DNA from: Escherichia coli
Lineage (GTDB): Bacteria; Pseudomonadota; Gammaproteobacteria; Enterobacterales; Enterobacteriaceae
DNA length: 64,000 bases
Assembly: GCF_024502345.1 (NCBI RefSeq)
Contig: NZ_JALDNN010000001.1
Strand: one strand, 5' to 3'
The notes under the pieces are model-generated. The model was not told the DNA's origin, searched no databases, and saw only the letters and a list, made by a program, of their open reading frames with translations. Made by a program: the position numbers and the translations under genes. Within the stretch, counting starts at the first letter, position 1. Every line of letters begins with the position of its first letter. Shown piece by piece: positions 1-16,104 of the stretch.

Positions 1-672
1 GACCGTTCCGTGGCAAAGCAAAAGTTCAAAATCACCAACTGGCCCACCTACAATAAAGCCCTCATCAACCGTGGCTCCATAACTTTCTGGCTGGATGATG
101 AAGCTATTCAGGCCTGGTATGAGTCAGCAACACCTTCTTCACGAGGCAGACCTCAGCGCTATTCTGACCTTGCCATCACGACTGTGCTGGTCATTAAACG
201 CGTATTCAGGCTGACCCTGCGCGCTGCGCAGGGCTTTATTGATTCCATTTTTTCTCTGATGAACGTTCCGCTACGCTGCCCGGATTACAGCTGTGTCAGC
301 AGGCGGGCAAAGTCGGTTAATGTCAGTTTCAAAACGCCCACCCGGGGTGAAATCGCACACCTGGTAATTGATTCCACCGGGCTGAAGGTCTTCGGTGAAG
401 GCGAGTGGAAAGTCAAAAAGCATGGCCAGGAACGCCGCCGTATCTGGCGTAAGCTGCATCTCGCCGTTGACAGTAAAACACATGAAATCATCTGCGCTGA
501 CCTGTCGCTGAACAACGTTACGGACTCAGAGGCCTTCCCCGGGTTAATCCGGCAAACCCACCGGAAAATCAGGTCAGCCGCCGCCGATGGCGCTTACGAT
601 ACCCGGCTATGTCACGATGAACTGCGGCGTAAGAAAATCAGCGCGCTTATCCCTCCCCGAAAAGGTGCGGGT
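1..672 (+). mobile_element. IS903-like (IS5 family) insertion sequence remnant; transposase N-terminal ~221 aa only, 3' part missing
   Basis: ORF 10..846 begins MAKQKFKITNWPTYNKALINRGS...RLCHDELRRKKISALIPPRKGAG, which I recognise as the IS903 transposase. The match ends near nt 672; downstream frame is read-through antisense to the GTPase gene. The element start lies at or beyond the window edge. Confidence 0.75.
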
Positions 673-1094
673 TGCATCACACCGTTCCAGAACTGCTCGT
701 CCACCGACAGCGCACGGTCATCAGCTTTGATGACCCACAGCACCAGGTCAAGCTCTGGCAGCATACGCCGGTACAGGGCGCGGTATTCATGGTCCCGTTG
801 TCCGTTCTCTCCCACGCCCGGTAAATCAACAATCACCAGACTGTGACGACCACTGCGCAGCCGGAAGCGCAGTATGTCGCGGGTGCAGGCGTTCACATCA
901 CTGACGGCGGAGACTTCCCCCCGAAAGAGTTCGTTACAGAGCGACGACTTACCGGCACCACTCTTGCCCATGATGCCAATCACCGGCTCGTAGTGGGTCA
1001 GATTCTGAATACGTTCAAGAATAAGCTGGCGAAGCGTATCGGGAAGCGACGCCAGCGGTTTTTCCAGGGCCTGAAGGCCATCAGTTTTATTCAT
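672..1094 (-). pseudogene. C-terminally truncated YfjP/YeeP-family GTPase
   Basis: ORF 612..1094 (-) has a P-loop GIMGKSGAGKSS and DLPGVGE motif typical of prophage YfjP/YkfA/YeeP GTPases. Only ~140 aa of an expected ~290 remain before the IS903 junction. Confidence 0.6.
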
Positions 1095-1726: not shown

Positions 1727-4540
1727 ATGCCAATGGAGAGCTGTACGCAAATGAACGCCGTAGAAATTGAACAAGCCATCACGGATCTTGCAGAGCAACC
1801 CTTTGATCCTATAGAGTTTCCTTATGCTTTTCTTGAAGCCTTTGGTAACAAGGAAACGACTGTCAAACGCTTGCGCGCCGGTGCATCAAACAAATCCGAC
1901 TTGGGCGGTGTTCTCCAGAGCAATAATATTCACATTCTGACCTGCGAAGCAGGGACTGTGACTCAGATGTTGGCCGCGCTCAAGGCTAGCCCTGCGACAA
2001 CTAAAGCCAAGGCGAAGTTCATCCTGGCTACAGATGGCAAAGATTTCGAAGCTGAAGACCTCGTTAGCGGTCAGACTGTCGCTTGCGCCTTTAAAGACTT
2101 CCCAGATCACTTCGGCTTTTTCTTGCCATTAGCAGGCATTAGCACAGTTCGTCAGATTTGTGAGAACTCCTTTGACATTCGGGCCACTAGCCGGCTGAAT
2201 CGTCTGTATGTCGAGTTGTTGAAAGATAACCCTACCTGGGGGACGGCGGAGCGACGTCATGACATGAACAAATTCATGACTCGGCTGATCTTTTGTTTTT
2301 TCGCTGAGGATACTGACATTTTCGTGGGTAAGGGACGCTTTACTGAAACCGTTGCGCAGATGAGTACAAGAGATTCGTCGAATACGCATGAAGTTATCGC
2401 TACCTTGTTTCGTGCCATGAACACCAGTAACAAAGATAGAGCCGCCGCTGGCATCCCGCGCTGGGCCAATGAGTTTCCTTATGTCAACGGACGCTTGTTC
2501 TCTGGGAGTAATGATGTACCACTGTTCAGTAAGATTGCACGGTCTTATTTGCTCCATGTGGGTAGCCTTGACTGGACCAAGATTAATCCGGATATCTTTG
2601 GCTCGATGATTCAGGCAATTGCCGAAGACGAAGAACGCGGAGAGCTGGGGATGCATTACACCAGCGTACCCAACATCTTAAAAGTTTTGAATCCACTATT
2701 TCTGGACGACCTGCGCGCAAAGCTGGATGAGGCGGGTGACAATCCGCGTATGTTGCTTAACCTGCGTAAGCGCATTTCCCACATCCGTGTGTTCGACCCA
2801 GCGTGCGGTTCTGGTAACTTTTTGGTTATCGCGTACAAGGAAATGCGTGCCATTGAGGCCGAAATCAACAAGCGGCGTAATGAGCCAGATCGCGCCTCGG
2901 ATATCCCACTTACCAACTTTCGCGGGATTGAACTAAGAGATTTCCCGGCAGAGATCGCCCGCCTTGCGCTTGTTATCGCTGAGTACCAATGTGATGTACT
3001 GTACCGTGGGCTGCGGTTGGCCTTGGCTGAGCTTCTTCCGTTACGCAACGAAAATTGGATTACCTGTGGCAATGCACTACGGCTCGACTGGTTAAGAATT
3101 TGCCCGCCGACAGGAACAGGTGTGAAATTACATGGCGATGACTTGTTTGGATCTCCGCTTGATCAGGCAGAGATCGACTTTGAGAATGAAGGCGGAGAGA
3201 CATACATTTGCGGTAACCCACCATACCTTGGTTCAAAGTGGCAGACGGATGAACATAAAGCTGATCTTGGCACAATCTTTTCTGGTCGCGTGAAAAATTG
3301 GAAATCGCTCGATTATGTTGCTGGCTGGTTCCTGAAAGCCGCTGACTATGGTAGCCAGACAAGTTCCCAGGCTGCTTTTGTTGCCACTAATTCAATCAGC
3401 CAAGGGCAGCAAGTGTCGATTCTGTGGCCGGAAATATTCAAGGCAGGACAAGAGATTAGTTTCGCTTACACGAGCTTTAAGTGGTCGAACCTCGCTACTC
3501 ACAACGCCGGGGTCACAGTTGTTATCATCGGAATTTCTAACTGTGTAGGAAAGTCGCGACGCCTCTTTTCGGCTGGAGGAGACAATGGTGCGACGACGTG
3601 TCGTGAGGTGGAGCGCATCAACGCCTATTTGATCGCTGGCCCTAACATCATTGTGGAGGGGGACAGTTGTCCAGCCGACAGTCTTGCAACGATGCAGTTC
3701 GGTAACCACCCGTACTATGGTGCATCACTGATCTTTTCGAGATCTGAAGCACAGCAGATGATGTCTGTCGATCCGCGTACGGCGCGTTTTATTCGCCCAC
3801 TATATGGCTCCCAAGAGTTCATTTCCGCTGTGCCACGAGCCTGTCTATGGATTAACGACGATGAGGCTGACGAAGCGGGGACGATTCCTCTGATAGCTGA
3901 GCGTATGAGCGCCGTAGCAAGTGCTAGACGTGCAAAAAAACAAGACAAGGCAGCCCAGAAACTGGCTAAGACTCCATATCGCTTTCGCGACCAGCAGACA
4001 TCTACGAATCATATTCTTGTGGTTCCTCGAGTCAGTTCAGAGAACCGTCCTTGCTTGCCGGTTGGATTACTTGACTCTGACTCTATCGTTCAAGATCAAG
4101 CATTCGCCCTTTACGACGCTCCTCTCTGGAACCTCGCCATCATAGCGAGTCGCCTGCATCTAGTTTGGATCGCCACGGTTTGTGGAAAGTTAGAGACACG
4201 CTACCGCTATTCAAACACCCTCGGCTGGAATACTTTCCCGCTCCCAACACTCACTGAGAAAAATAAGGCAGACCTCACGCGCTGTGCAGAGGATATTCTT
4301 CTGACTAGGGAGCATCACTTCCCTGCAACCATTGCAGACCTTTATGACCCCGAGAAGATGCCAGACGACCTGCGTATTGTGCACGAGCGTAATGACGAAG
4401 TGCTTGAGCGTATTTACATTGGGCGCCGCTTTAAGAATGACACAGAGCGGCTTGAGAAGCTGTTTGACCTTTATACTAAGATGGCCGCTTCAACTGCATC
4501 GGGCAAAAGCAATAAACGTAAAGTGGGAACCAATGCATGA
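1727..4540 (+). CDS. MmeI-family (type IIG/IIL-like) N6-adenine DNA methyltransferase with target-recognition region; N-terminal nuclease motif apparently degenerate
   Basis: 937-aa ORF. SAM motif I FDPACGSGNFLV, catalytic motif IV GNPPY, and MmeI/PglX hallmarks FPYVNGRLF, HYTSVPNILKVLNPLFLDDL, FVATNSISQGQQVSILWP, RYRYSNTLGWNTFP, LYDPEKMP. Alternative start at 1751 (MNAVEIEQ). Confidence 0.85.
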   Translation: MPMESCTQMNAVEIEQAITDLAEQPFDPIEFPYAFLEAFGNKETTVKRLRAGASNKSDLGGVLQSNNIHILTCEAGTVTQMLAALKASPATTKAKAKFILATDGKDFEAEDLVSGQTVACAFKDFPDHFGFFLPLAGISTVRQICENSFDIRATSRLNRLYVELLKDNPTWGTAERRHDMNKFMTRLIFCFFAEDTDIFVGKGRFTETVAQMSTRDSSNTHEVIATLFRAMNTSNKDRAAAGIPRWANEFPYVNGRLFSGSNDVPLFSKIARSYLLHVGSLDWTKINPDIFGSMIQAIAEDEERGELGMHYTSVPNILKVLNPLFLDDLRAKLDEAGDNPRMLLNLRKRISHIRVFDPACGSGNFLVIAYKEMRAIEAEINKRRNEPDRASDIPLTNFRGIELRDFPAEIARLALVIAEYQCDVLYRGLRLALAELLPLRNENWITCGNALRLDWLRICPPTGTGVKLHGDDLFGSPLDQAEIDFENEGGETYICGNPPYLGSKWQTDEHKADLGTIFSGRVKNWKSLDYVAGWFLKAADYGSQTSSQAAFVATNSISQGQQVSILWPEIFKAGQEISFAYTSFKWSNLATHNAGVTVVIIGISNCVGKSRRLFSAGGDNGATTCREVERINAYLIAGPNIIVEGDSCPADSLATMQFGNHPYYGASLIFSRSEAQQMMSVDPRTARFIRPLYGSQEFISAVPRACLWINDDEADEAGTIPLIAERMSAVASARRAKKQDKAAQKLAKTPYRFRDQQTSTNHILVVPRVSSENRPCLPVGLLDSDSIVQDQAFALYDAPLWNLAIIASRLHLVWIATVCGKLETRYRYSNTLGWNTFPLPTLTEKNKADLTRCAEDILLTREHHFPATIADLYDPEKMPDDLRIVHERNDEVLERIYIGRRFKNDTERLEKLFDLYTKMAASTASGKSNKRKVGTNA

Positions 4541-6582
4541 GCAACAAGATTAGATCTGTACCGTCAGTTTCTGTTACCTACTCACGCAACGGAGCATCGA
4601 CCAAGGCTAATTCTCTTGGGATGCGTCCTATGCAAGAAAGGGCTTATGAGAAGCGCGGAGAACAATATCTTCTCATAAAGTCGCCGCCCGCCTCTGGCAA
4701 GAGTCGTGCGCTGATGTTCGTCGCACTCGATAAACTCGCAAACCAGGGGATCAAACAGGCAATCATTGTCGTGCCGGAAAAATCTATCGGCGCGAGCTTC
4801 AACGATGAACCGCTATCGCAGTTTGGATTCTGGGCTGATTGGCATGTTGAACCTAAGTGGAATCTGTGCAACGCCCCCGGTAACGACAACGGCGGCAAGG
4901 TAAAATCTTTCGGCTCTTTTCTTGAAAGTAGCGACAAGGTGCTTGTTTGTACACACGCAACCTTTCGCTTCGCGGTCGATGCCTACGGTGTAGAGGCGTT
5001 TGACGATCGCCTGATCGCCGTCGATGAATTTCACCATGTGTCCGCTAACCCGGATAACAAGCTTGGTCAGCATCTGGGACAGTTCATTGAGCGTGACAAG
5101 ACGCACATCGTGGCCATGACCGGCTCCTACTTCCGGGGAGATGCGGAAGCCGTTTTGGCTCCTCAGGATGAGTCTAGGTTCGATACCGTCACCTACACCT
5201 ACTACGAACAACTCAACGGTTACGAATACCTCAAACAGCTTGATATCGGATACTTCTTTTATAGTGGATCATACATTGATGACATCCTCAATGTCCTCGA
5301 TCCTGACAAGAAAACGATTATCCATATTCCCAACGTCAATTCGCGCGAGAGTACGAAGGATAAAATTAAGGAGGTGGAGCACATTCTGAGCGAGCTTGGC
5401 GATTGGCAAGGTGCGGATCCTACGACTGGTTTTCAGCTAGTCAAGCGCCCCGATGGCCATGTGTTGCGTATTGCTGACCTGGTGGACCCAGCCAGTCAAG
5501 GCAAGATTCAGGAAAGCCTCCGAGCTCCAGAAATGAAGACAGACCGTGACTATGTAGACATCATTATTGCACTTGGTATGGCGAAGGAAGGTTTCGACTG
5601 GATCTGGTGCGAACATGCGCTGACTGTTGGCTACCGTGCCAGCCTGACTGAGATCGTGCAGATTATCGGTCGCGCTACTCGCGACGCGCCGGGTAAAACC
5701 CGCGCGAGATTTACTAACTTGATCGCCGAGCCCGACGCTGTAGAGGGCGCAGTAACTGAGGCAGTCAACGATACCTTGAAAGCTATCGCGGCGAGCCTGT
5801 TGATGGAACAGGTACTGGCTCCGCGCTTCGAGTTCAAGCCCAAGAATCCTGAAATCGGTCCGACTCCAGGCTTTGATTATGGTGATGGAGGATATGACCC
5901 GGATAGCTGCAATTTTGGTGTTAATGAGCAGACAGGGACGTATCAAATCGAGATTAAGGGACTTGCCGAGCCTAGGAGCAAAGAGGCGGCACGTATCTGC
6001 CAGGAAGATTTAAACGAAGTGATCGCGGCCTTTGTGCAGGATAAGCCCGCCATCGAACGAGGCCTGTTCGATGAAGAGCTGATCCCTGAAGAGTTAACAC
6101 AGGTTCGTATGGGTAAGATCATCAAAGAAAAGTATCCTGAACTTGATGCTGAAGATCAGGAGGCTGTACGTCAGCATGCTATCGCCGCCCTTAACCTCAC
6201 GCAGCAGGCCAAGCGTCTTGCTACCGGTGAAAACGATGGGACGCTCAATACTGCTCTTATTGACGGAGTGCGTCGCTTTGCAATGGATGTGCGCGATTTA
6301 GACATAGACCTTATCGACCGCATCAATCCCTTTGGTGAAGCCTACGCTATCCTTGCTAAGACGATGAGTGAAGACAGTTTGAAGCAGGTCGCGGCGGCCA
6401 TCTCGGCCAAGCGTACTTCGATCACGCCTGAAGATGCCAAGGTGATCGCCAAGCGTGCCGCTGAATTCAAACGTGAACGTGGGCGCCTCCCATCGTTAAC
6501 TTCGCTGGATGCTTGGGAAAAACACCTTGCTGAAGGTGCAGCCGCGTTTATGCGTTTTAGGGCGGAGGGACGTTATGAGTAA
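4537..6582 (+). CDS. SF2 DExH-box helicase with ~280-aa C-terminal extension of unknown function
   Basis: 681-aa ORF. Walker A PPASGKS, motif II VDEFHH, motif III MTGSY, motif VI QIIGRATR. Start ATG overlaps the methyltransferase stop (ATGA at 4537-4540). Confidence 0.8.
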   Translation: MSNKIRSVPSVSVTYSRNGASTKANSLGMRPMQERAYEKRGEQYLLIKSPPASGKSRALMFVALDKLANQGIKQAIIVVPEKSIGASFNDEPLSQFGFWADWHVEPKWNLCNAPGNDNGGKVKSFGSFLESSDKVLVCTHATFRFAVDAYGVEAFDDRLIAVDEFHHVSANPDNKLGQHLGQFIERDKTHIVAMTGSYFRGDAEAVLAPQDESRFDTVTYTYYEQLNGYEYLKQLDIGYFFYSGSYIDDILNVLDPDKKTIIHIPNVNSRESTKDKIKEVEHILSELGDWQGADPTTGFQLVKRPDGHVLRIADLVDPASQGKIQESLRAPEMKTDRDYVDIIIALGMAKEGFDWIWCEHALTVGYRASLTEIVQIIGRATRDAPGKTRARFTNLIAEPDAVEGAVTEAVNDTLKAIAASLLMEQVLAPRFEFKPKNPEIGPTPGFDYGDGGYDPDSCNFGVNEQTGTYQIEIKGLAEPRSKEAARICQEDLNEVIAAFVQDKPAIERGLFDEELIPEELTQVRMGKIIKEKYPELDAEDQEAVRQHAIAALNLTQQAKRLATGENDGTLNTALIDGVRRFAMDVRDLDIDLIDRINPFGEAYAILAKTMSEDSLKQVAAAISAKRTSITPEDAKVIAKRAAEFKRERGRLPSLTSLDAWEKHLAEGAAAFMRFRAEGRYE

Positions 6583-7753
6583 TTCTGATTTAGACGATTT
6601 GGCGGCAGAACTTGCTGAATTTGCACCACCGGAGAAGAAAAAAGGACGTCCAGCCAGCGAGGAACGCATCATCGCAGGTTTTGAGGAAATCCAGCGCTTC
6701 GCTGACCAACATGGACGTGCGCCGCAACACGGCGAAGAGCGTGAGATCTTTGAGCGCCTCTATGCAGTGCGGCTCGACCGGCTACGCAGTCTCCCAGACT
6801 GCCGTGCCTTGCTAGAGCCGCTGGATCATCAAGGCTTATTGGCTGGAGGGGGTGATGTAGCGGAGTCAGCGGACGAAATTATCGATATCGATAATTTGGC
6901 TGCCGAACTGACGGATGTTTCCAGCGAGGATGATATCACAGTCTTGCGTCATGTTCGTGCTAGCGCCGAAAAGCGTGCTGTACAAGGGATCGCGGATCGC
7001 AAGCCGTGCGAGGATTTTGATACATTCAAACCGCTATTTGAACAGGTGCGCAGTGATCTAAGTTCAGGGTTAAGAGTGACCCGACCTTTTGGACAGTATG
7101 CAACGATTGAAGTGGGCCATTGGTTCATCCTGGATGGTCAAACGGCTTATGTGGCTGAGGAAGGTGAAGAGTTCGATTCTCCACAGGGGAAGAAAGATGC
7201 TCGGCTGCGTGTCATTTATTCGAATGGTACAGAAAGTAACCTGCTTCGGCTGTCATTAGTTCGTGCTTTGTATAAAGACGAAACAGCACGTCGAATTACC
7301 GATCCAGACATGGGGCCTTTATTCAGCGATGCTCTAGAAGAGAGCGATCTAGAAAGTGGCACCATTTATGTATTGCGTTCGCTATCAGATAACCCTTATG
7401 TGGCCGAACATCGTGATGTTATTCACAAGATTGGTGTGACTGGCGGCAAGGTCGAGACTCGTATTGCTAATGCTGAACACGATTCCACCTATCTGTTGGC
7501 GAAGGTAGAGGTGGTCGCTTCATACAAACTCGCAGGTATCAACCGCACCCGGATGGAAAACCTGTTTCACAGGTTGTTTGCACCCGCAAGGCTTAACATT
7601 ACCATTAACGACCGTTTCGGCCATCCAGTACAGCCCGAGGAATGGTTTCTCGTTCCGTTATTCGTTATCGATGAGGCTGTTGCACGTATTAAGGATGGTA
7701 GCATCATTGGGTATGTTTATGACCCCATGTCTGCGAAACTGGTGAAGGCATAG
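6575..7753 (+). CDS. T5orf172/MUG113 (GIY-YIG superfamily) domain protein, candidate nuclease, with acidic N-terminal domain of unknown function
   Basis: C-terminal GTIYVLRS...HKIGVTGGKVETRIANAEH...PEEWFLVPL fits the T5orf172 GIY-YIG-like pattern. GGAGGGA Shine-Dalgarno 6 nt upstream of ATG 6575; start overlaps the helicase stop (taa 6580-6582). The ORF track's upstream ATG at 6509 lacks an RBS. Confidence 0.65.
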   Translation: MSNSDLDDLAAELAEFAPPEKKKGRPASEERIIAGFEEIQRFADQHGRAPQHGEEREIFERLYAVRLDRLRSLPDCRALLEPLDHQGLLAGGGDVAESADEIIDIDNLAAELTDVSSEDDITVLRHVRASAEKRAVQGIADRKPCEDFDTFKPLFEQVRSDLSSGLRVTRPFGQYATIEVGHWFILDGQTAYVAEEGEEFDSPQGKKDARLRVIYSNGTESNLLRLSLVRALYKDETARRITDPDMGPLFSDALEESDLESGTIYVLRSLSDNPYVAEHRDVIHKIGVTGGKVETRIANAEHDSTYLLAKVEVVASYKLAGINRTRMENLFHRLFAPARLNITINDRFGHPVQPEEWFLVPLFVIDEAVARIKDGSIIGYVYDPMSAKLVKA

Positions 7754-7779
7754 TGAAGTGACACACTGAATTTGGCCAC

Positions 7780-7812
7780 CTGTTCTGAGGTGAGTATATC
7801 ACCTCAGAACAG
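7780..7812 (+). terminator. Perfect 14-bp-stem hairpin just downstream of the three-gene cassette; no U-tract
   Basis: ctgttctgaggtga / gtata / tcacctcagaacag read directly. Lack of a T-run makes intrinsic-terminator function uncertain; could be an RNA stability or protein-binding element. Confidence 0.3.
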
Positions 7813-7868
7813 CACAGGAATAAAAGATACTGATTTGAATGTACCTATACTTTGCGATGTGAGGATCA

Positions 7869-8660
7869 ATGAATAGTAACCTGACCAAGATATGTTACCG
7901 TGGTGAGACTGGTGAAAGTGATCTAAGAACGTTGATACTTGGTGAGATTCTATATATCTCACTACGAGATGTTTTAATCACGCTGAATAAAGAAAATAGA
8001 GAAATCAACGCTGATTACACAGTAAAATCGATGGCTGGAATAATCAGGGCGCAATTACAGGCTCTTGACCCTGATGAGTATATTACTACAGATGCTGAAA
8101 ATGGTGTTTTTGAAGGTCAGAAAGAGATCTTCGTCACCCAGCCAGGTTTGTATCGAGTCATGTCAAGTGACCGAAGCGCTGCCGGTAAGCGCTTTCAAAA
8201 ATGGTTATTTCATGAAGTCATACCATCATTGACTAAGCATGGTGTATACCCGCCTCCGCCAGAAGCGAAAGGTTCAGCCCTTGCACAAATGGCTGAGATA
8301 CTTGCTCAAAATTCGCGAGCACTTGCTGACGCAATCCATAAACACGAAAAACTGGCCGAAGATGTCTCACAGGTTAAAGGTAAAGTTGCCAACGTTGAAA
8401 GCCGTCTGGAACTGTTAGAATCAGGTCCTTCCACTGTAACTGAAGATATGCATACTCTTGATAGCCGTCTCGCTTATTTGGACATGAGCATGGAAGAAAA
8501 GCATACCACCGAGACATTAGCCTGGTGCGAGAATATTTCTGTTCAAAATAACAGGAAGGTGATTCGCAAGGACTGTAGGGAGAATTCGCTCTTTACAACG
8601 CAGACTATCGACGAAGCAATCGCTATCATGACTGAAAGTGGAAAAATCACACCAAATTGA
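7869..8660 (+). CDS. Bro-N (KilA-N/antirepressor-like) domain protein with coiled-coil C-terminus
   Basis: 263-aa ORF. N-terminal ...DLRTLILGEILYISLRDVLITL...GLYRVMSSDRSAAGKRFQKWLFHEVIPSLTKHGVY resembles the Bro-N fold pattern. GAGGAT RBS upstream. Confidence 0.55.
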   Translation: MNSNLTKICYRGETGESDLRTLILGEILYISLRDVLITLNKENREINADYTVKSMAGIIRAQLQALDPDEYITTDAENGVFEGQKEIFVTQPGLYRVMSSDRSAAGKRFQKWLFHEVIPSLTKHGVYPPPPEAKGSALAQMAEILAQNSRALADAIHKHEKLAEDVSQVKGKVANVESRLELLESGPSTVTEDMHTLDSRLAYLDMSMEEKHTTETLAWCENISVQNNRKVIRKDCRENSLFTTQTIDEAIAIMTESGKITPN

Positions 8661-10371: not shown

Positions 10372-11085
10372 TTAGGTTCTGCTCTCCTGTGAGTATGGGT
10401 TTATAATGATGTCATCCGGTGCATTAACACGGTTGGAAACATTTGTTTTACGGATCACTGGCAGCATAACCACCATCTCATTGACATGGTAAATATCAAT
10501 CCAACAAACAACCGGATAAGGCATAACAATCCCCTTTCTTCTAAGAACTTCATTTATCCCGAATATAATTAATTGGGATGTTGACAAGAGTAGAGTCTGC
10601 CCGACATCAAAGTAATAATCCTCAAAGGTTGTTCTATGAATAAGAATAATGTTTGAATATCCCAAGACACTTTGATGCTTTACATTAAAATGTCGTTGAT
10701 TGTAAATGTAAATGGCTTTTTCCATATCGTAATTTTCCCTCAGCGAGGATAGCCTTTCACGTATAACTGTTTTTTCATCTTTCCCCATGAATTCATCATT
10801 AGCGTTCAGTTTAAAGTAATCTGTAATTGGGATTTTTAATGGACTCATGATGTTCGTTTTCCAGATTAACGAACAGTATTCTTCCAGAGTCACTTCTTTT
10901 TCACCTCGATTTCGAATAATTCTTTCATTTATAGTGAATCTTAGTAGATCGTTTTTTAGCTCCTTTATTAGCCATTGATAGCGAAGACATTGCTCGAATA
11001 TATGTACCGTCAACGCCACAGAGTCTGATATGACTGAGGAAAGAGATTTATTATTCATCCTGGCATAATGCTCAAGAGTTTCCAT
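10372..11085 (-). CDS. Hypothetical protein, AT-rich orphan island gene
   Basis: 237-aa ORF with no recognisable motif; low GC relative to surroundings. Confidence 0.45.
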   Translation of the reverse strand: METLEHYARMNNKSLSSVISDSVALTVHIFEQCLRYQWLIKELKNDLLRFTINERIIRNRGEKEVTLEEYCSLIWKTNIMSPLKIPITDYFKLNANDEFMGKDEKTVIRERLSSLRENYDMEKAIYIYNQRHFNVKHQSVLGYSNIILIHRTTFEDYYFDVGQTLLLSTSQLIIFGINEVLRRKGIVMPYPVVCWIDIYHVNEMVVMLPVIRKTNVSNRVNAPDDIIINPYSQESRT

Positions 11086-11245
11086 CTCAGATTCATTTTT
11101 GTGCGTAAAAGTGTATTTTTTATTGGAAATGTTTTTTACTCCTTATAATTAACATTGCTATTAATTAATCCTGTTTGTAAAGGAGAAGTTTATTAATAAG
11201 TAAAAGTCCGCCTGCATCAAGACACGATGAAAATGTCTTCCTTTC

Positions 11246-11458
11246 TTACTCTATTGCCCGGGTTCGTTGTAAAATCCATTCGTCTATTTCAGCCTCTATC
11301 CAGCCGACAGATTGCAGCCCCAGACGACGTTGTTTCGGGAACGTTGGGTCATAGCGTGGCGATTTCGGATTGATCCAGTCATAGATTGTTGAACGTGACA
11401 AGCCCGTTTTGTCAATTACTGTAGAAAGACGAAGTATTTTAACATTAGATTTGTTCAT
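11246..11458 (-). CDS. alpA: AlpA-family prophage transcriptional regulator (excision activator)
   Basis: 70-aa ORF MNKSNVKILRLSTVIDKTGLSRSTIYDWINPKSPRYDPTFPKQRRLGLQSVGWIEAEIDEWI matches AlpA. Confidence 0.85.
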   Translation of the reverse strand: MNKSNVKILRLSTVIDKTGLSRSTIYDWINPKSPRYDPTFPKQRRLGLQSVGWIEAEIDEWILQRTRAIE

Positions 11459-11879
11459 AGCTGATTACCTCAAATCGAAGTGCTCTGGATGATGTGAGAT
11501 TAGCTTTAAGGCAGCCAATCTAAAATGTATGTGCCAAAAAAACTTTTTTTTACGAACGGGAAATAAATATCCTATTGAAATTTAATGATTTTATTTTTTT
11601 TCTGTCGGGTCCATCAGAACGGTGTGAATTCAGTTACAGCCTTCCGGTCCGGTAATGGGCCAGTTATATGTTGAGTGGCTGCGCTTCGATGACTTCTGTT
11701 TCAGTGGGCTGGTCTATCTCCGACGTGCTGTGGCAGGTAGCGGTTCAGCAGTAGCCATTATTCGTTCTGCTCCGTCAGTACCGCACCCAGCAGCCGCAAG
11801 ATGCTCTCTTCATTGGGAAGATACCTACCACTGTCAACGCCAAGATTGTTGGCCGTTTCGTCCGCATCCCCTATTGGTC

Positions 11880-12570
11880 ATTAATGTTGTCCGCTTTCCG
11901 CCGTTTCATCTCTTTGTTCAGGCGCTCCAGCGTGTTTGTGGAGTGGGTTTTTCACTTGGTGTGCTTTCGGGAGGCCGAAGGACGCCAGCACGTCTGCCTC
12001 TGCTTCGTCCATCACCCCGGTGACCGCCGGGTTGCTTTTCTCCCATTGACCGGCAACCTTGCACAGGTGGCATGGGCGCTTTTCTCGTCGGTCTGCACGA
12101 ACACCTGTTGCAGCGCCGCACGGACCACCGACTGGTTTGCACGGCTGACGCGGCTCAGCACGTTGCGCATGAAGTGGACCCGGCAGCGCTGCCAGCTGGC
12201 GGAGAACATCTGCCTATCGCCGCCTTCAGGCTCAGCAGGAAGGTCAGCCAGGATGCCGTTTATCCATGCTTCCTGGATAACCGCGTTGAGCGCCTTCTCA
12301 GACAATCTGTGGGCCTCCAGGAAGGGCGGGAAGTACGTCCCTTTAAGCAGCTTCGGAATACGCAGGTCCACAGCGTGCCGAGCTGGCGGGGACTGACGGT
12401 CACGATAGCCGTTGTGGTAGGTTTCGCGCTCATCGCTGCGCTAGTGGGCTCCGCGTTGATGTGCTGAGTGACATCTGCTTCCATAATGCAGTTGAGCATA
12501 AATTCGGTGAGTTCACGCAGAAAATCCTCGCCGCCGAGTAGCATCAGGGTGTTGCTGAATGTCATGCTGT
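11880..12570 (-). pseudogene. IS256-family (Mutator-type) transposase remnant, frameshifted with internal deletion
   Basis: Minus-strand fragments: 12260..12565 (MTFSNTLMLLGGEDFLRELTEFMLNCIMEADVTQ, typical N-terminus) and 12012..12371 (...QRCRVHFMRNVLSRV motif) in different frames; the DDE core between them is absent. Confidence 0.55.
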
Positions 12571-12784
12571 TGTCATTCCGAATTTACACCACGCCCTAAG
12601 ACTCTACCTTATTTTCTTTGCAAAGCAGGCTGCTTGTGCAAGTTGTACATGTAGTTAACAGGCAGTAAGTATGGCAAACCATTATTTCATGTCTTCACAT
12701 CTGGTTCTTCATTCAGTTAAGTAGTAAAAATGAAAGGGATGTCAGAGCAAGAACAGATGACGTTGTGTAACTGACCAATGAAGG

Positions 12785-13558
12785 ATGATATGGAATATGC
12801 TTGATATTTTTTGCTCGGAATTTGAAGAAAAAAGAAACAAATTAAAGACCTACCTTGAAAGCTCGGGATTTCTTTATAGGCATTCTATCATCAAAAAAAT
12901 GTCTCTTTTGGATGGTATGGATGAAAGCCAGAATTTTGAGTTGTTGCAGGCGAAACAATATAATCGTGATGATATACAATGCTGGGAGTATATTAGCTCT
13001 AAGTGGACCGTCGTTCCTATTATGATGGGTTCGCAAAGCCTTAAACACTTTTTTACATGGAATTTTAAGGCCGCTGGGATATTTCAGCGATATGGAAAGG
13101 ATATGTGGGATATCAACAAGATAATTGCAGTTAAATCTTTATTGTTTGCTAGTTCAGTCTTAGGTAGTTGCCTTGGGGTTGCAGGCTATGGCCCGTTGCT
13201 GCCTTCGGAGCTTGCATTAGACAAAAAGAAGCTAACTAAGAAAAAACAGTCAGCAAGAATGGGAGGGATATCTAAGGCTGAATTATATCTCCCGATAAAA
13301 GAAGAGACGATAAGATTGCTCCACCAAAATGTTCCTGTGGATGGTAGATGGAAAAATAAAACGGTTGCAGCAAAGGCAATAGAGGCAGATTTAGTCATCT
13401 TTGTACAAAATTTGAAATCTCAAAACCAAAATCTGGATCTTAATGAAGAAGATATTATTACAGTCGTCAAACGTTGGGAACGCAATGATGAAAGAGTAAA
13501 GGCTGCATTTGAGGGAACGGTGAAGCAAAAAATCTCTGGCAAGAAGGGCTCGGGTTAG
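12785..13558 (+). CDS. Hypothetical AT-rich, lysine-rich protein with one predicted hydrophobic segment
   Basis: 257-aa ORF; hydrophobic stretch IIAVKSLLFASSVLGSCLGVAGYGPLL. No recognisable domain. Confidence 0.45.
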   Translation: MIWNMLDIFCSEFEEKRNKLKTYLESSGFLYRHSIIKKMSLLDGMDESQNFELLQAKQYNRDDIQCWEYISSKWTVVPIMMGSQSLKHFFTWNFKAAGIFQRYGKDMWDINKIIAVKSLLFASSVLGSCLGVAGYGPLLPSELALDKKKLTKKKQSARMGGISKAELYLPIKEETIRLLHQNVPVDGRWKNKTVAAKAIEADLVIFVQNLKSQNQNLDLNEEDIITVVKRWERNDERVKAAFEGTVKQKISGKKGSG

Positions 13559-13589
13559 AACTTCTCATTATTTTTTCCAAAAATAAGAA

Positions 13590-13609
13590 CCGCGCCTTTG
13601 AAGGCGCGG
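13590..13609 (-). terminator. Hairpin terminator between convergent integrase and hypothetical gene
   Basis: ccgcgcc-tttgaa-ggcgcgg, followed on the minus strand by a T-rich tract. Confidence 0.4.
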
Positions 13610-13620
13610 ATTAAGTAGAA

Positions 13621-14862
13621 TCAAACAACAAGTTTTAATGCACCGGCACTAGATTCTACCATGCTTCCTTTATCTGCTCTTTTAACAAAATCAGCCCACC
13701 ATTGCATCATCGGCCTACGTTGCTCAAGATAATCACTGCGGTTATAAGCGCGACGTACCTCATTTTTGTCTACATGAGCAAGTGCGGCTTCAATGACATC
13801 AGGAGGAAATCCTTGCTCATTGAGGGCTGTACTGGCGATAGAACGCAAACCATGTGAAACCAGCACTCCCCCTAAACCGGCACGCTTGAGTGCAGCATTC
13901 ACGGTTTGACTGTTCATCGGCTGAGTGGGCTTAATGCGGCTTGGAAAAATAAAATCTCGGCCACCACTGAGCGGCTTCATCATTTCCAGAATAGCCAGAG
14001 CCCCATCAGATAATGGAACGGTATGGTCCCGGTTCATTTTCATTCGGGCTGCTGGAATTTTCCATTCGTTAGCATCAAAATCGATCTCATTCCACCGAGC
14101 TTCTGCGGCTTCTGCGGGGCGGGTGATGGTGAGAAGTTGCCACATGAACAGACACCGCGTAGACAGGCTGATACTGGCCGTACGCATAGTTTGCATCAAC
14201 TGAGGCAACTGATCCGGACGAATACTGGGCATGTTCTTTTTCTGAGGTTTCTCGAAGGCTTTGCCAATATTAACACTGGGAACTGCATCAATCAGGCCCG
14301 TGTTTTGGGCATAAATCATGACTTCATTGATCCGTTGGCAAAGACGGCGGACAGTTTCCAGTGCTCCTCGGGCCTGAACGGGTTGAACGGCTTGAACCAG
14401 TGTATGGGCTTTAATATCTGTAACGCTTACGTTGCCAATTGCGGGAAATATATCTCTTTCAAGCGAACGCCAGATATCATCAGCATAGTCCTCGGTTACA
14501 CTGGCTTTCTTCACATTCCACCAACGCTCGGCAACTAACAAGAAAGTGTTGGTTTTGGCCTCCTGAGAATTTCTTATCTGTTCTTTTTGGTATTCCTGAG
14601 GATCGATTCCTTTTGCCAGTAATACTTTGGATTCAGCTCTGAGCTTACGAGCATCGGAAAGCGAGACAGCAGGATAGGAACCGAAGCTCTGTTTAGTTCG
14701 CTGTTTTGTCAGAGGTCGGTAATAACGGAATTGCCAGAGCTTACTGCCACTGGATTTGATTAGCAGCGTCAGTCCGTCACCATCATACAACTGATAATCG
14801 GCATCTTTAGATTTGGCTGCTTTGATTTCCGTATCCGTTAACGGCTTGGTTTTTCTTGCCAC
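13621..14862 (-). CDS. intA: P4-type tyrosine integrase of a CP4-57-like island (GTG start)
   Basis: 413-aa ORF beginning (M)ARKTKPLTDTEIKAAKSKDADYQLYDGDGLTLLIKSSGSKLWQFRYY, immediately downstream of ssrA on the same strand. Confidence 0.9.
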   Translation of the reverse strand: MARKTKPLTDTEIKAAKSKDADYQLYDGDGLTLLIKSSGSKLWQFRYYRPLTKQRTKQSFGSYPAVSLSDARKLRAESKVLLAKGIDPQEYQKEQIRNSQEAKTNTFLLVAERWWNVKKASVTEDYADDIWRSLERDIFPAIGNVSVTDIKAHTLVQAVQPVQARGALETVRRLCQRINEVMIYAQNTGLIDAVPSVNIGKAFEKPQKKNMPSIRPDQLPQLMQTMRTASISLSTRCLFMWQLLTITRPAEAAEARWNEIDFDANEWKIPAARMKMNRDHTVPLSDGALAILEMMKPLSGGRDFIFPSRIKPTQPMNSQTVNAALKRAGLGGVLVSHGLRSIASTALNEQGFPPDVIEAALAHVDKNEVRRAYNRSDYLEQRRPMMQWWADFVKRADKGSMVESSAGALKLVV

Positions 14863-15044
14863 GGTGGAGTCTCCATGCTTTTAGGCCCAACAAAGACCAT
14901 AGATCTTTTCGTTGGGCCTATCAATGGGCCTAAAACAATTAGCTTAGGTAGGATCAAATCAGATAGCGCTGGACATAAAAAAGCCCGTAAGTCGTTGTGA
15001 CTACGGGTTTTTTGGTTTTTCTTGGATTGCTTTGGAATAAAATT

Positions 15045-15407
15045 TGGTGGAGCTGGCGGGAGTTGAACCCGCGTCCGAAATTCCTACATCCTCGGTACTA
15101 CATGCTTAGTCAGTCTTTACATTCGCTTGCCAGCTGCGGACGGACACGCCACTAACAAACTAGCCTGATTAAGTTTTAACGCTTCAACCCCAGGCAGGGC
15201 TTCCACGCGATCTCTTTTGGGTTTGACCTCTCTTGATCCCCGTCCTAAGAGCGGAGGCTAGGGAGAGAGGGCTCTAAGCAGGTTATTAAGCTGCTAAAGC
15301 GTAGTTTTCGTCGTTTGCGACTATTTTTTGCGGCTTTTTACGAGGCCAACCGCCCCTCGGCATGCACCTTGGGTTTCGCAAATCCCGTCGAATCCAGAAT
15401 CAGCCCC
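15045..15407 (-). ncRNA. ssrA: tmRNA (SsrA); its 3' end is the island integration site
   Basis: Reverse complement reads GGGGCTGATTCTGGATTCGACGGG...GGGTTCAACTCCCGCCAGCTCCACCA, with the tag-coding region and tRNA-like ends. Confidence 0.95.
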
Positions 15408-15621
15408 AATGTGTAAAGGTAAGTATACCAGATTTATGAGCGCCATGACCAGCCTCAATGGCGTTATCGTTAAAGATTTAGCACCCATGTAGCCTGATTT
15501 TTATTCGATTAAGCAATGGAATGGCAACATTTGTGTCGGATGTGATAACCAATAAGATGTTCATTCGCGCCGCCGGAGAGGGAGGCGCGGTGAGGAACTG
15601 GTCAATAATTGGAGTGCAGGT

Positions 15622-16104
15622 TTAACGGTGGGCGTTTTTCATGATACGCGCTTTATCCACCTGCCATTCGCGCTCTTTGATATCTGAACGTTTATCGTGC
15701 TGTTTCTTACCTTTGGCGACGCCGATTTTCACTTTGCACCAGGCATTTTTCCAGTACAGGGAGAGCGCCACTACGGTATAGCCTTCTCGATTGACGCGAC
15801 CGTACAATGAGTCCAGTTCGCGCTGGTTGAGAAGTAACTTGCGGGTACGGGTAGGGTCGCACACCACATGCGTGGAGGCCACGGCCATTGGCGTGATGTT
15901 AGCGCCAAACAGAAATGCCTCTCCGTCACGCAGAAGGACGTAGCTGTCGCTGATATTGGCTTTTCCTGCGCGCAGGGATTTAACCTCCCAGCCTTGCAGG
16001 GCAAGTCCCGCTTCGAACTCTTCTTCGATAAAGTATTCGTGACGGGCGCGCTTGTTAAGCGCGATGGTCGCTGAACCAGGTTTATGTGCTTTTTTCTTCG
16101 TCAT
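15622..16104 (-). CDS. smpB: SsrA-binding protein SmpB
   Basis: 160-aa [37 protein letters not shown]... Confidence 0.95.

What the first reader, a model, noticed from the sequence alone, without database searches (positions are those of the whole stretch)
11880..12570. Decayed IS256-family transposase separating alpA from the integrase
The transposase is in at least two frames, and the DDE core between the N-terminal block and the QRCRVHFMRN block is missing, so it cannot be functional. Its position between the excision activator gene and the integrase may have uncoupled AlpA control of integrase expression, which could help fix the island and its cargo in the chromosome.
Basis: partly seen in the sequence, partly recalled or inferred. 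Interest (0 to 1): 0.3.

Follow-up and report, generated by a model that had tools for sequence, protein, structure and literature searches.

The report
Dead ISEae1-like insertion sequence scar
A long-dead insertion sequence of the IS256 family sits in the spacer upstream of the excision-regulator gene alpA in an E. coli ssrA island; it is an ordinary IS scar, and nothing supports the idea that it disconnects AlpA from the integrase.

Summary
The remnant spans about 11603-12608 (1006 bp, minus strand), not 11880-12570. It derives from an ISEae1-like IS256-family element whose intact form is about 1373 bp. Both terminal inverted repeats survive. There are 14 indels and two in-frame stops. D161 and D227 of the DDE triad are deleted, and the E333 codon is out of frame. 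A 67-bp stub of an IS21-family end is nested inside.

The same insertion occurs in only 6 of 5,426 complete E. coli genomes, where RefSeq already annotates it as a transposase pseudogene. Klebsiella oxytoca and one metagenomic relative show the uninterrupted site.

The mechanistic reading is not supported. The scar lies in the divergent spacer between alpA and a yfjH-like gene, 144-145 bp upstream of alpA. It is separated from intA by a whole gene and a terminator, and it lies about 2.3 kb from the intA upstream region. K-12 CP4-57 has the same alpA / yfjH / intA order, so the two genes were never adjacent. AlpA expressed from plasmids drives excision in trans.

A cis effect on alpA's own promoter cannot be excluded. 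Overall this is an ordinary finding of low interest.

The parts
11603..12608 (-). Whole remnant of an ISEae1-like IS256-family insertion sequence: 1006 bp against about 1373 bp for intact ISEae1
   Evidence: Three-way and pairwise alignment with intact ISEae1 from plasmid pSB89A and with the longer copy in E. coli 2013C-4282. Identity is 87.2% over 943 aligned positions, with 14 indels. G+C is 56.8%, against 30-38% in the flanks.
12578..12608 (-). Left terminal inverted repeat (IRL): GGTAGAGTCTTAGGGCGTGGTGTAAATTCGG
   Evidence: 30 of 31 positions identical to the ISEae1 IRL. A 78-bp gap relative to ISEae1 follows directly. It removes the leader, the ribosome-binding site and the first ATG.
11603..11633 (+). 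Right terminal inverted repeat (IRR), decayed: TGTCGGGTCCATCAGAACGGTGTGAATTCAG
   Evidence: 23 of 31 positions identical to the ISEae1 IRR. The outward TTGACG hexamer of ISEae1 reads CTGATG here.
12252..12574 (-). N-terminal transposase fragment, codons 3-110, in two frames, with an in-frame TAG at codon 47
   Evidence: tblastn against the ISEae1 transposase, 93% and 78% identity, E=1.8e-47.
11670..12250 (-). C-terminal transposase fragments: codons 206-214, then about 234-400. Contains QRCRVHFMRN and the out-of-frame E333 motif. Broken by five 1-5 bp indels, an in-frame TAA and a 60-bp net insertion
   Evidence: tblastn, indel list, Pfam PF00872 E=3.5e-17.
11832..11898 (+). Nested 67-bp stub of the right end of an IS21-family element (TGTCAACGCCAAGATT...). 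It replaces 7 bp of the IS256-type sequence
   Evidence: This segment matches the termini downstream of istB in many E. coli IS21-like elements (81-84% over about 90 bp, E down to 1e-10). Alignment with the copy on E24377A plasmid pETEC_73 is. Absent from ISEae1 and from the 2013C-4282 copy.
11246..11458 (-). alpA, intact, 70 aa
   Evidence: Pfam PF05930 Phage_AlpA, E=1.4e-21. 71% identical to K-12 AlpA over 68 aa.
11459..11602 (-). alpA-proximal part of the divergent spacer (144 bp, 30% G+C)
   Evidence: Visibly conserved in alignment with the uninterrupted K. oxytoca and metagenomic loci, up to the insertion point. Only weak sigma-70 candidates are present.
12609..12784 (+). yfjH-like-proximal part of the divergent spacer. 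It begins with TTATTTTC, a possible 8-bp target duplication
   Evidence: Alignment with the empty sites. The left counterpart reads TTATTTTTTTTC, and the T-run length differs between the two E. coli alleles.
12785..13558 (+). yfjH-like gene (257-aa ORF; RefSeq aa)
   Evidence: 29% identity to K-12 YfjH over 201 aa, E=4e-21. Same position and orientation as yfjH in CP4-57. No Pfam or PADLOC match.
13590..13609 (.). G+C-rich hairpin terminator between the convergent yfjH-like gene and intA
   Evidence: Terminator scan: 8 pairs, 7 of them G-C, followed by a T-run.
13621..14862 (-). intA, intact tyrosine integrase, 413 aa
   Evidence: Pfam Arm-DNA-bind_3, Phage_int_M and Phage_integrase. 92% identical to K-12 IntA.
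14896..14934 (-). Candidate intA promoter (TTGATA-17-TATGGT), overlapped by a doublet of TGGGCCTA repeats
   Evidence: The only sigma-70-like site upstream of intA. The same doublet recurs at the far end of the island in strain 2013C-4282. The function is inferred, not shown.
15045..15407 (-). ssrA (tmRNA), the integration target
   Evidence: ARAGORN; Rfam RF00023, 295.8 bits.

Best explanation
The feature is the inert scar of one ancient insertion of an ISEae1-like IS256-family element. It inserted into the AT-rich divergent spacer between alpA and a yfjH-like gene of a CP4-57-type island at ssrA. The element then decayed in place. It lost its leader and start codon, and two internal deletions removed D161 and D227. 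It accumulated frameshifts, stop codons and substitutions biased from GC to AT. Other insertion sequences also hit it, and later deletions left only stubs of them.

The scar encodes nothing functional. It does not change the AlpA-to-IntA relationship. AlpA is a diffusible DNA-binding protein, intA is an independent transcription unit with its own upstream region next to ssrA and its own terminator, and both genes are intact.

Shown here: the identity, extent and lesions of the scar, the insertion site, the empty sites, and the ancestral gene order. Inferred: the order of decay events, and the absence of any regulatory consequence.
For: Identity and decay:
- Pfam PF00872.
- The nearly full-length allele in strain 2013C-4282 translates to about 90% amino-acid identity with ISEae1 transposases on Enterobacter and Klebsiella plasmids.
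- Lesion map against ISEae1.

Single ancestral insertion:
- All six complete E. coli genomes with this module carry the element at the same site.
- Both alleles share the deletion that follows the IRL.
- Uninterrupted spacers exist in K. oxytoca (446 bp) and in a metagenomic contig (458 bp) with the same gene order.

Neutral decay:
- The two alleles differ by 11% inside the element, against 2.0-2.4% in the flanks, where flanking-gene dS is 0.03-0.06.
- 36 of the 66 window-specific substitutions are GC-to-AT.

Nested IS traffic:
- An IS21-family stub in the window.
- An IS3-family stub in the 2013C-4282 copy, at the place where the window has its 284-bp deletion.
- A different transposase in the same spacer of a Salmonella relative.

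No uncoupling:
- K-12 CP4-57 has the same alpA / yfjH / intA order.
- A terminator follows intA, and the only promoter-like site is upstream of intA next to ssrA.
- alpA and intA are intact.
- AlpA acts in trans from plasmids (PMC3105296, PMC10107115, PMC5148205, PMC6092414).
Against: The scar is only 144-145 bp upstream of the alpA start codon, and the alpA promoter has not been mapped here. Only weak sigma-70 candidates were found. In PICIs, AlpA activates its own promoter (PMC6092414). In Shewanella, H-NS silences the alpA promoter (PMC5148205). A 1-kb G+C-rich block placed in this AT-rich region could therefore change alpA expression.

The substitution excess in the window lineage (66 against 31, binomial p=0.0005), with the opposite asymmetry in the flanks (21 against 47), is not fully explained by simple neutral decay.

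The target-site duplication is not clean (TTATTTTC against TTATTTTTTTTC).

The far end of the island (attR) is outside the window, so the island's ability to excise could not be assessed.
Confidence: 0.8

Rival explanations
1. Cis effect on alpA. The scar changed transcription of alpA itself, and so changed excision frequency. Three routes are possible:
- It could displace upstream activator, autoregulatory or silencer sequences.
- It could split the AT-rich H-NS/Hha-type silencing tract.
- It could let transcription from the element read through into alpA, because the transposase orientation points toward alpA.
For: The insertion point is 144-145 bp upstream of alpA, in a spacer that is 446-458 bp long when uninterrupted. 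The remnant reads toward alpA, and no minus-strand terminator-like hairpin was found inside it. Weak hybrid promoter candidates straddle the IRR/flank junction: CTGATG-18-TAAAAT and CCGACA-18-TAAATT, each 8 of 12 matches. In intact ISEae1 the first hexamer is TTGACG. AlpA autoactivates PalpA in PICIs (PMC6092414), and H-NS silences PalpA in CP4So (PMC5148205).
Against: The 144-145 bp block next to alpA is conserved with the empty-site relatives right up to the insertion point, which suggests the core promoter was kept. The candidate hybrid promoters are weak, and the former -35 has mutated. The element's own leader is deleted. H-NS is reported not to control CP4-57 excision in E. coli (discussion in PMC5148205). 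Even the direction of any effect, more or less excision, cannot be predicted.
Confidence: 0.14
2. The insertion physically separated alpA from intA, uncoupled AlpA control of integrase expression, and thereby helped to fix the island and its cargo in the chromosome.
For: The scar does lie between the alpA and intA genes on the map. Earlier work cited in PMC6092414 (Kirby 1994, Trempy 1994) suggested that AlpA controls int expression in CP4-57.
Against: alpA and intA are separated by yfjH in the archetype too. The scar is on the far side of a whole gene and a terminator from the 3' end of intA, and about 2.3 kb from the intA upstream region. AlpA works in trans from plasmids (PMC3105296, PMC10107115, PMC5148205). 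Both genes are intact. The scar-bearing module sits in different local contexts in different genomes: directly at ssrA in some, and behind other integrated elements in KCJ3K291 and 873.10.
Confidence: 0.03
3. Non-autonomous mobile element. Because both terminal inverted repeats survive, the scar could still be moved in trans by an intact ISEae1-type transposase, in the manner of a MITE.
For: The IRL is 30 of 31 identical to ISEae1, and the IRR is still recognisable at 23 of 31.
Against: There is exactly one copy per genome, always at the same site, in the six complete E. coli genomes that have it. No intact ISEae1-like element was found in any of the 5,426 genomes. The IRR has 8 mismatches. 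No other copy is present in the window.
Confidence: 0.02

Closest known systems
ISEae1 (IS256 family; Enterobacter/Klebsiella plasmids, often next to blaIMI-2)
   Same: Both have a transposase of the Mutator/IS256 type (PF00872). The 2013C-4282 allele is about 90% identical to the ISEae1 transposase at the amino-acid level, and the window remnant is 87% identical at the nucleotide level. The terminal inverted repeats match (IRL 30/31, IRR 23/31), as does the motif order WLDATY ... SDSHSG ... QRCRVHFMRN ... NTLERLN.
   Different: The remnant is 1006 bp instead of about 1373 bp. The leader and start codon are deleted, D161 and D227 are deleted, and E333 is out of frame. There are two stop codons and 14 indels, and a foreign IS21-family stub lies inside. 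It is chromosomal, single-copy and immobile.
Transposase pseudogenes annotated by RefSeq/PGAP at this same locus in E. coli KCJ3K291, 873.10, NH-21 and two ST536 assemblies, and 'IS256 family transposase, frameshifted' in 2013C-4282
   Same: The sequence is identical or nearly identical (99.4-100% over 2451 bp) at the same site between alpA and the yfjH-like gene.
   Different: PGAP marks two partial pseudogene pieces, corresponding to window 11760-12214 and 12263-12564. It does not name the family in the short allele, does not mark the inverted repeats, and does not mark the nested IS21 stub.
CP4-57 cryptic prophage of E. coli K-12 (ssrA-intA-yfjH-alpA module)
   Same: Both integrate at the 3' end of ssrA. 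IntA is 92% identical, AlpA 71% identical and the YfjH homologue 29% identical, with the same gene order and orientations. A YfjJ/YagK-type gene lies downstream.
   Different: K-12 has only 43 bp between alpA and yfjH and no insertion sequence there. The cargo also differs: here it is an MmeI-like type IIG restriction-modification enzyme, a helicase, a T5orf172 protein and a Bro-N protein.

Membership tests
IS256 family insertion sequence (ISEae1 group) | Transposase homologous to the Mutator/IS256 type (Pfam PF00872) | tested here: met
   PF00872 E=3.5e-17. tblastn with the ISEae1 transposase gives E=1.8e-47 and 7e-36.
IS256 family insertion sequence (ISEae1 group) | Single uninterrupted transposase ORF of about 400 aa with a complete DDE triad | tested here: not met
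   D161 and D227 are deleted and E333 is out of frame. There are two in-frame stops, 14 indels and no first ATG. It is a remnant of a family member, not a functional member.
IS256 family insertion sequence (ISEae1 group) | Imperfect terminal inverted repeats of about 25-40 bp | tested here: met
   IRL at 12578-12608 is 30/31 identical to ISEae1. IRR at 11603-11633 is 23/31 identical.
IS256 family insertion sequence (ISEae1 group) | 8-9 bp target-site duplication | tested here: inconclusive
   The right flank reads TTATTTTC and the left flank TTATTTTTTTTC. They agree only if a T-run expanded. The run length does differ between the two E. coli alleles.
CP4-57-type integrative island with an AlpA/IntA excision module | P4-type tyrosine integrase gene next to the 3' end of ssrA | tested here: met
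   intA is 182 bp from ssrA, has three integrase Pfam domains, and is 92% identical to K-12 IntA.
CP4-57-type integrative island with an AlpA/IntA excision module | AlpA-family (PF05930) regulator gene in the order alpA / yfjH / intA | tested here: met
   PF05930 E=1.4e-21. AlpA is 71% identical to K-12 AlpA. The order and orientations match K-12.
CP4-57-type integrative island with an AlpA/IntA excision module | Second attachment site (attR) bounding the island | tested here: inconclusive
   No repeat of the ssrA 3' end occurs in the 15 kb of island held in the window. The island probably runs off the window. In strain 2013C-4282 the arm-like doublet recurs about 25.6 kb away.
CP4-57-type integrative island with an AlpA/IntA excision module | AlpA-dependent excision | not testable with these tools
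   This needs attB / circular-junction PCR with and without alpA induction.

The most novel reading that the evidence does not exclude
The 1-kb G+C-rich scar is not neutral. By splitting the AT-rich alpA / yfjH-like control region 144-145 bp upstream of alpA, or by supplying read-through or hybrid-promoter transcription, it reset alpA expression and hence the excision rate of a defence-cargo island at ssrA. That could explain why every known E. coli copy of this island variant keeps the scar.
Probability: 0.1. Interest if true: 0.3.

Novelty: already known. Interest (0 to 1): 0.08.

Why it matters
It matters little. Decayed insertion sequences are routine in genomic islands, and this one is already flagged as a transposase pseudogene in RefSeq genomes.

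The useful outcome is negative. The scar should not be read as evidence that the island is locked in place. The alpA, intA and attL-side elements look intact, and the archetype has the same non-adjacent arrangement.

There are three minor points of value:
- A precise lesion map of the remnant.
- Proof of the empty site in other species.
- Evidence that this spacer is a repeated landing pad for insertion sequences.

Tried and rejected
- I looked for an uninterrupted (empty) site in E. coli with joined flanks. None was found in 5,426 complete genomes. The one contig returned for the 100%-identical YfjH-like protein also carries the scar. Empty sites were found only in K. oxytoca and a metagenomic contig.
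- I looked for an intact copy of the element in E. coli chromosomes and found none. Intact relatives are on Enterobacter and Klebsiella plasmids.
- I tested whether the insertion truncated the yfjH-like gene. The upstream frame is full of stop codons, so it did not.
- I searched for attR in the window and did not find it.
- The Rfam scan of 11000-15500 found only tmRNA, apart from a sub-threshold hit to its permuted form that overlaps the same gene. A weak STnc50-like hit (E=0.29) over the terminator was dismissed.
- The generic repeat finder did not recover the terminal inverted repeats because the IRR has decayed. They were defined by alignment to ISEae1 instead.
- Promoter scans for alpA gave only weak candidates, so the alpA promoter remains unmapped.
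- The original 1994 AlpA/SlpA papers are not in the held library. Their content is cited only through PMC6092414.
- The long plus-strand ORFs across the remnant (for example 11884-12396) were regarded as antisense artefacts of G+C-rich DNA and not pursued.

Full report
**Context.** The window carries smpB (15622-16104, minus strand), ssrA (15045-15407, minus) and, directly downstream of the ssrA 3' end, a CP4-57-type island. The island holds the following genes:
- intA at 13621-14862 (minus), with three integrase Pfam domains and 92% identity to K-12 IntA.
- A convergent 257-aa gene at 12785-13558 (plus). It is a distant YfjH homologue (29% identity over 201 aa, E=4e-21).
- alpA at 11246-11458 (minus), which hits PF05930 at E=1.4e-21 and is 71% identical to K-12 AlpA.
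- YagM-, YagL- and YagK-like genes, followed by cargo: an MmeI-like type IIG restriction-modification enzyme, a helicase, a T5orf172 protein and a Bro-N protein.

**Observation.** The finding is real.
- The ORF at 12012-12371 hits Pfam Transposase_mut at E=3.5e-17.
- The closest intact relative is ISEae1, an IS256-family element on Enterobacter and Klebsiella plasmids. A transposase reconstructed from the nearly full-length allele in strain 2013C-4282 is about 90% identical to it at the amino-acid level.
- tblastn with the 401-aa ISEae1 transposase recovers codons 3-45, 46-110, 206-214 and about 224-400. The first two pieces are in different reading frames.
- The last piece is a single-frame alignment at 44% identity with in-frame stops. 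The indel map shows further frameshifts within it.

**Lesion map.** Pairwise alignment with the intact element gives 87.2% identity over 943 positions and 14 indels:
- A 78-bp loss directly after the left inverted repeat, which removes the leader and the first ATG.
- A 284-bp deletion of codons 111-205, which takes out D161.
- A 57-bp deletion of codons 215-233, which takes out D227.
- Seven 1-2 bp frameshifting indels and one 5-bp deletion.
- A 60-bp net insertion.

There are also in-frame TAG and TAA codons. The E333 motif is present but out of frame.

**Extent.** Alignment with ISEae1 and with a longer allele shows both terminal inverted repeats. The IRL is at 12578-12608 (30 of 31 identical to ISEae1) and the IRR is at 11603-11633 (23 of 31). 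The scar is therefore 1006 bp, at 11603-12608.

That stub matches the right terminus of IS21-family elements, downstream of istB. Its inner junction falls in a short stretch that resembles both elements, which is what a deletion removing the rest of that second IS would leave.

**Population and history.**
- The alpA-scar-yfjH-like-intA module occurs in only 6 of 5,426 complete E. coli genomes, always with the element at the same site.
- Five genomes have the window's short allele at 99.4-100% identity. RefSeq annotates it there as two partial, frameshifted 'transposase' pseudogenes.
- Strain 2013C-4282 has a 1210-bp 'IS256 family transposase, frameshifted' that keeps the DDE codons. It is interrupted by an IS3-family stub exactly where the window has its 284-bp deletion.
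- Both alleles share the deletion after the IRL, so the insertion predates their split.
- No intact relative exists in any of the complete E. coli genomes.
- Uninterrupted spacers occur in Klebsiella oxytoca (446 bp) and in a metagenomic contig (458 bp), with the same gene order.
- Those empty sites place the insertion in a T-rich tract. A possible 8-bp duplication, TTATTTTC, is blurred by T-run expansion.
- A Salmonella relative carries a different transposase in the same spacer, so the site attracts insertion sequences repeatedly.

**Decay pattern.** The two E. coli alleles differ by 11% inside the element but by only 2.0-2.4% in the flanks, where flanking-gene dS is 0.03-0.06. Of the 66 window-specific substitutions, 36 are GC-to-AT, as expected for unconstrained G+C-rich DNA (56.8% G+C against 30-38% in the flanks). 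The excess in the window lineage (66 against 31) runs opposite to the asymmetry in the flanks (21 against 47). I leave this as a minor unexplained point. Recombination, or gene conversion of the longer allele, could account for it.

**Interpretation.** The uncoupling idea does not survive mapping, for four reasons:
- K-12 CP4-57 has the same order, alpA (minus) / yfjH (plus) / intA (minus). alpA and intA were never adjacent or co-transcribed.
- The scar lies in the alpA / yfjH-like divergent spacer, 144-145 bp from the alpA start codon and 176 bp from the yfjH-like start codon.
- Between the scar and intA lie a whole gene and a strong hairpin terminator at 13590-13609. The only sigma-70-like site upstream of intA is at 14924-14896, next to ssrA. 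It overlaps a TGGGCCTA doublet that recurs at the far end of the island in strain 2013C-4282.
- AlpA works in trans. Plasmid-expressed alpA excises CP4-57 (PMC3105296, PMC10107115) and CP4So (PMC5148205). In E. coli PICIs it activates its own promoter from a separate plasmid and does not control int there (PMC6092414).

alpA, intA and the spacer next to alpA are all intact and conserved.

What remains possible is a cis effect on alpA's own transcription. No convincing alpA promoter was found. The element points toward alpA, and weak hybrid promoter candidates straddle the IRR junction. I give this about 0.14 and cannot predict its direction.

**Verdict.** This is an ordinary insertion-sequence scar that is already annotated as a pseudogene. 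The transposase is certainly non-functional. The proposed regulatory uncoupling and island fixation are not supported. Whether the island can excise cannot be judged from the window, because attR lies outside it.

Noticed in passing
window 14912-14934: The doublet TTGGGCCTATCAATGGGCCTAAA lies between ssrA and intA and overlaps the -35 of the only promoter-like site upstream of intA. The same doublet recurs at the far end of the related island in strain 2013C-4282 (L012 20844-20866). These are likely integrase arm-type or AlpA/RDF binding sites near attL and attR.
   Followed up: partly
window 11832-11898: A 67-bp stub of the right end of an IS21-family element (TGTCAACGCCAAGATT...) is nested in the IS256 remnant. 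It is the trace of a second IS that inserted and was later deleted.
   Followed up: yes
L002 5073-5190 (strain 2013C-4282): The longer allele of the same scar carries an IS3-family end stub at the position where the window has its 284-bp deletion. This suggests the window's deletion removed that third IS together with flanking transposase sequence.
   Followed up: partly
L008 3836-4880 (Salmonella enterica serovar Java): A related island has a different transposase (DDE_Tnp_1_assoc / DDE_Tnp_1) in the same alpA / yfjH-like spacer. That island is not at ssrA; type VI secretion genes are next to its integrase.
   Followed up: partly
window 11603-12608 compared with flanks 10372-11602 and 12609-14862: The two E. 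coli alleles differ by 11% inside the scar and by 2.0-2.4% in the flanks (flanking-gene dS 0.03-0.06). Window-specific changes outnumber those of the other allele 66 to 31 inside the scar, but 21 to 47 in the flanks. This asymmetry is not fully explained.
   Followed up: partly
window 1727-8660: The island cargo looks like a defence cluster. It comprises an MmeI-like type IIG restriction-modification enzyme (937 aa; PADLOC REase_MTase_IIG, E=3.9e-284), a DEAD/ResIII helicase (681 aa), a T5orf172/MUG113 protein (414 aa) and a Bro-N protein (263 aa).
   Followed up: partly
window 10-846: A 278-aa ORF with DDE_Tnp_1_5 / DDE_Tnp_1 transposase domains lies at the left edge of the window. It is another insertion sequence in the island.
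   Followed up: no
L001 7663-10450 and L003 19664-34451: In strains KCJ3K291 and 873.10 the same intA is not next to ssrA. Other integrated elements lie between them: a methylase / AAA-ATPase element in one, and a P2-like prophage with its own integrase in the other. These are tandem arrays at the ssrA site.
   Followed up: no
L007 4790-4920 and L011 equivalents, compared with window 12644-12645: The uninterrupted spacers of K. oxytoca and the metagenomic contig hold about 115-140 bp that both E. coli alleles lack, roughly 36 bp from the IS end on the yfjH-like side.
   Followed up: no
window 10372-11085: RefSeq marks the YagM-like gene as a pseudogene missing its N-terminus. However, the 237-aa ORF here has the same length as the K. 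oxytoca homologue, which hits PF27701. It may be intact.
   Followed up: no
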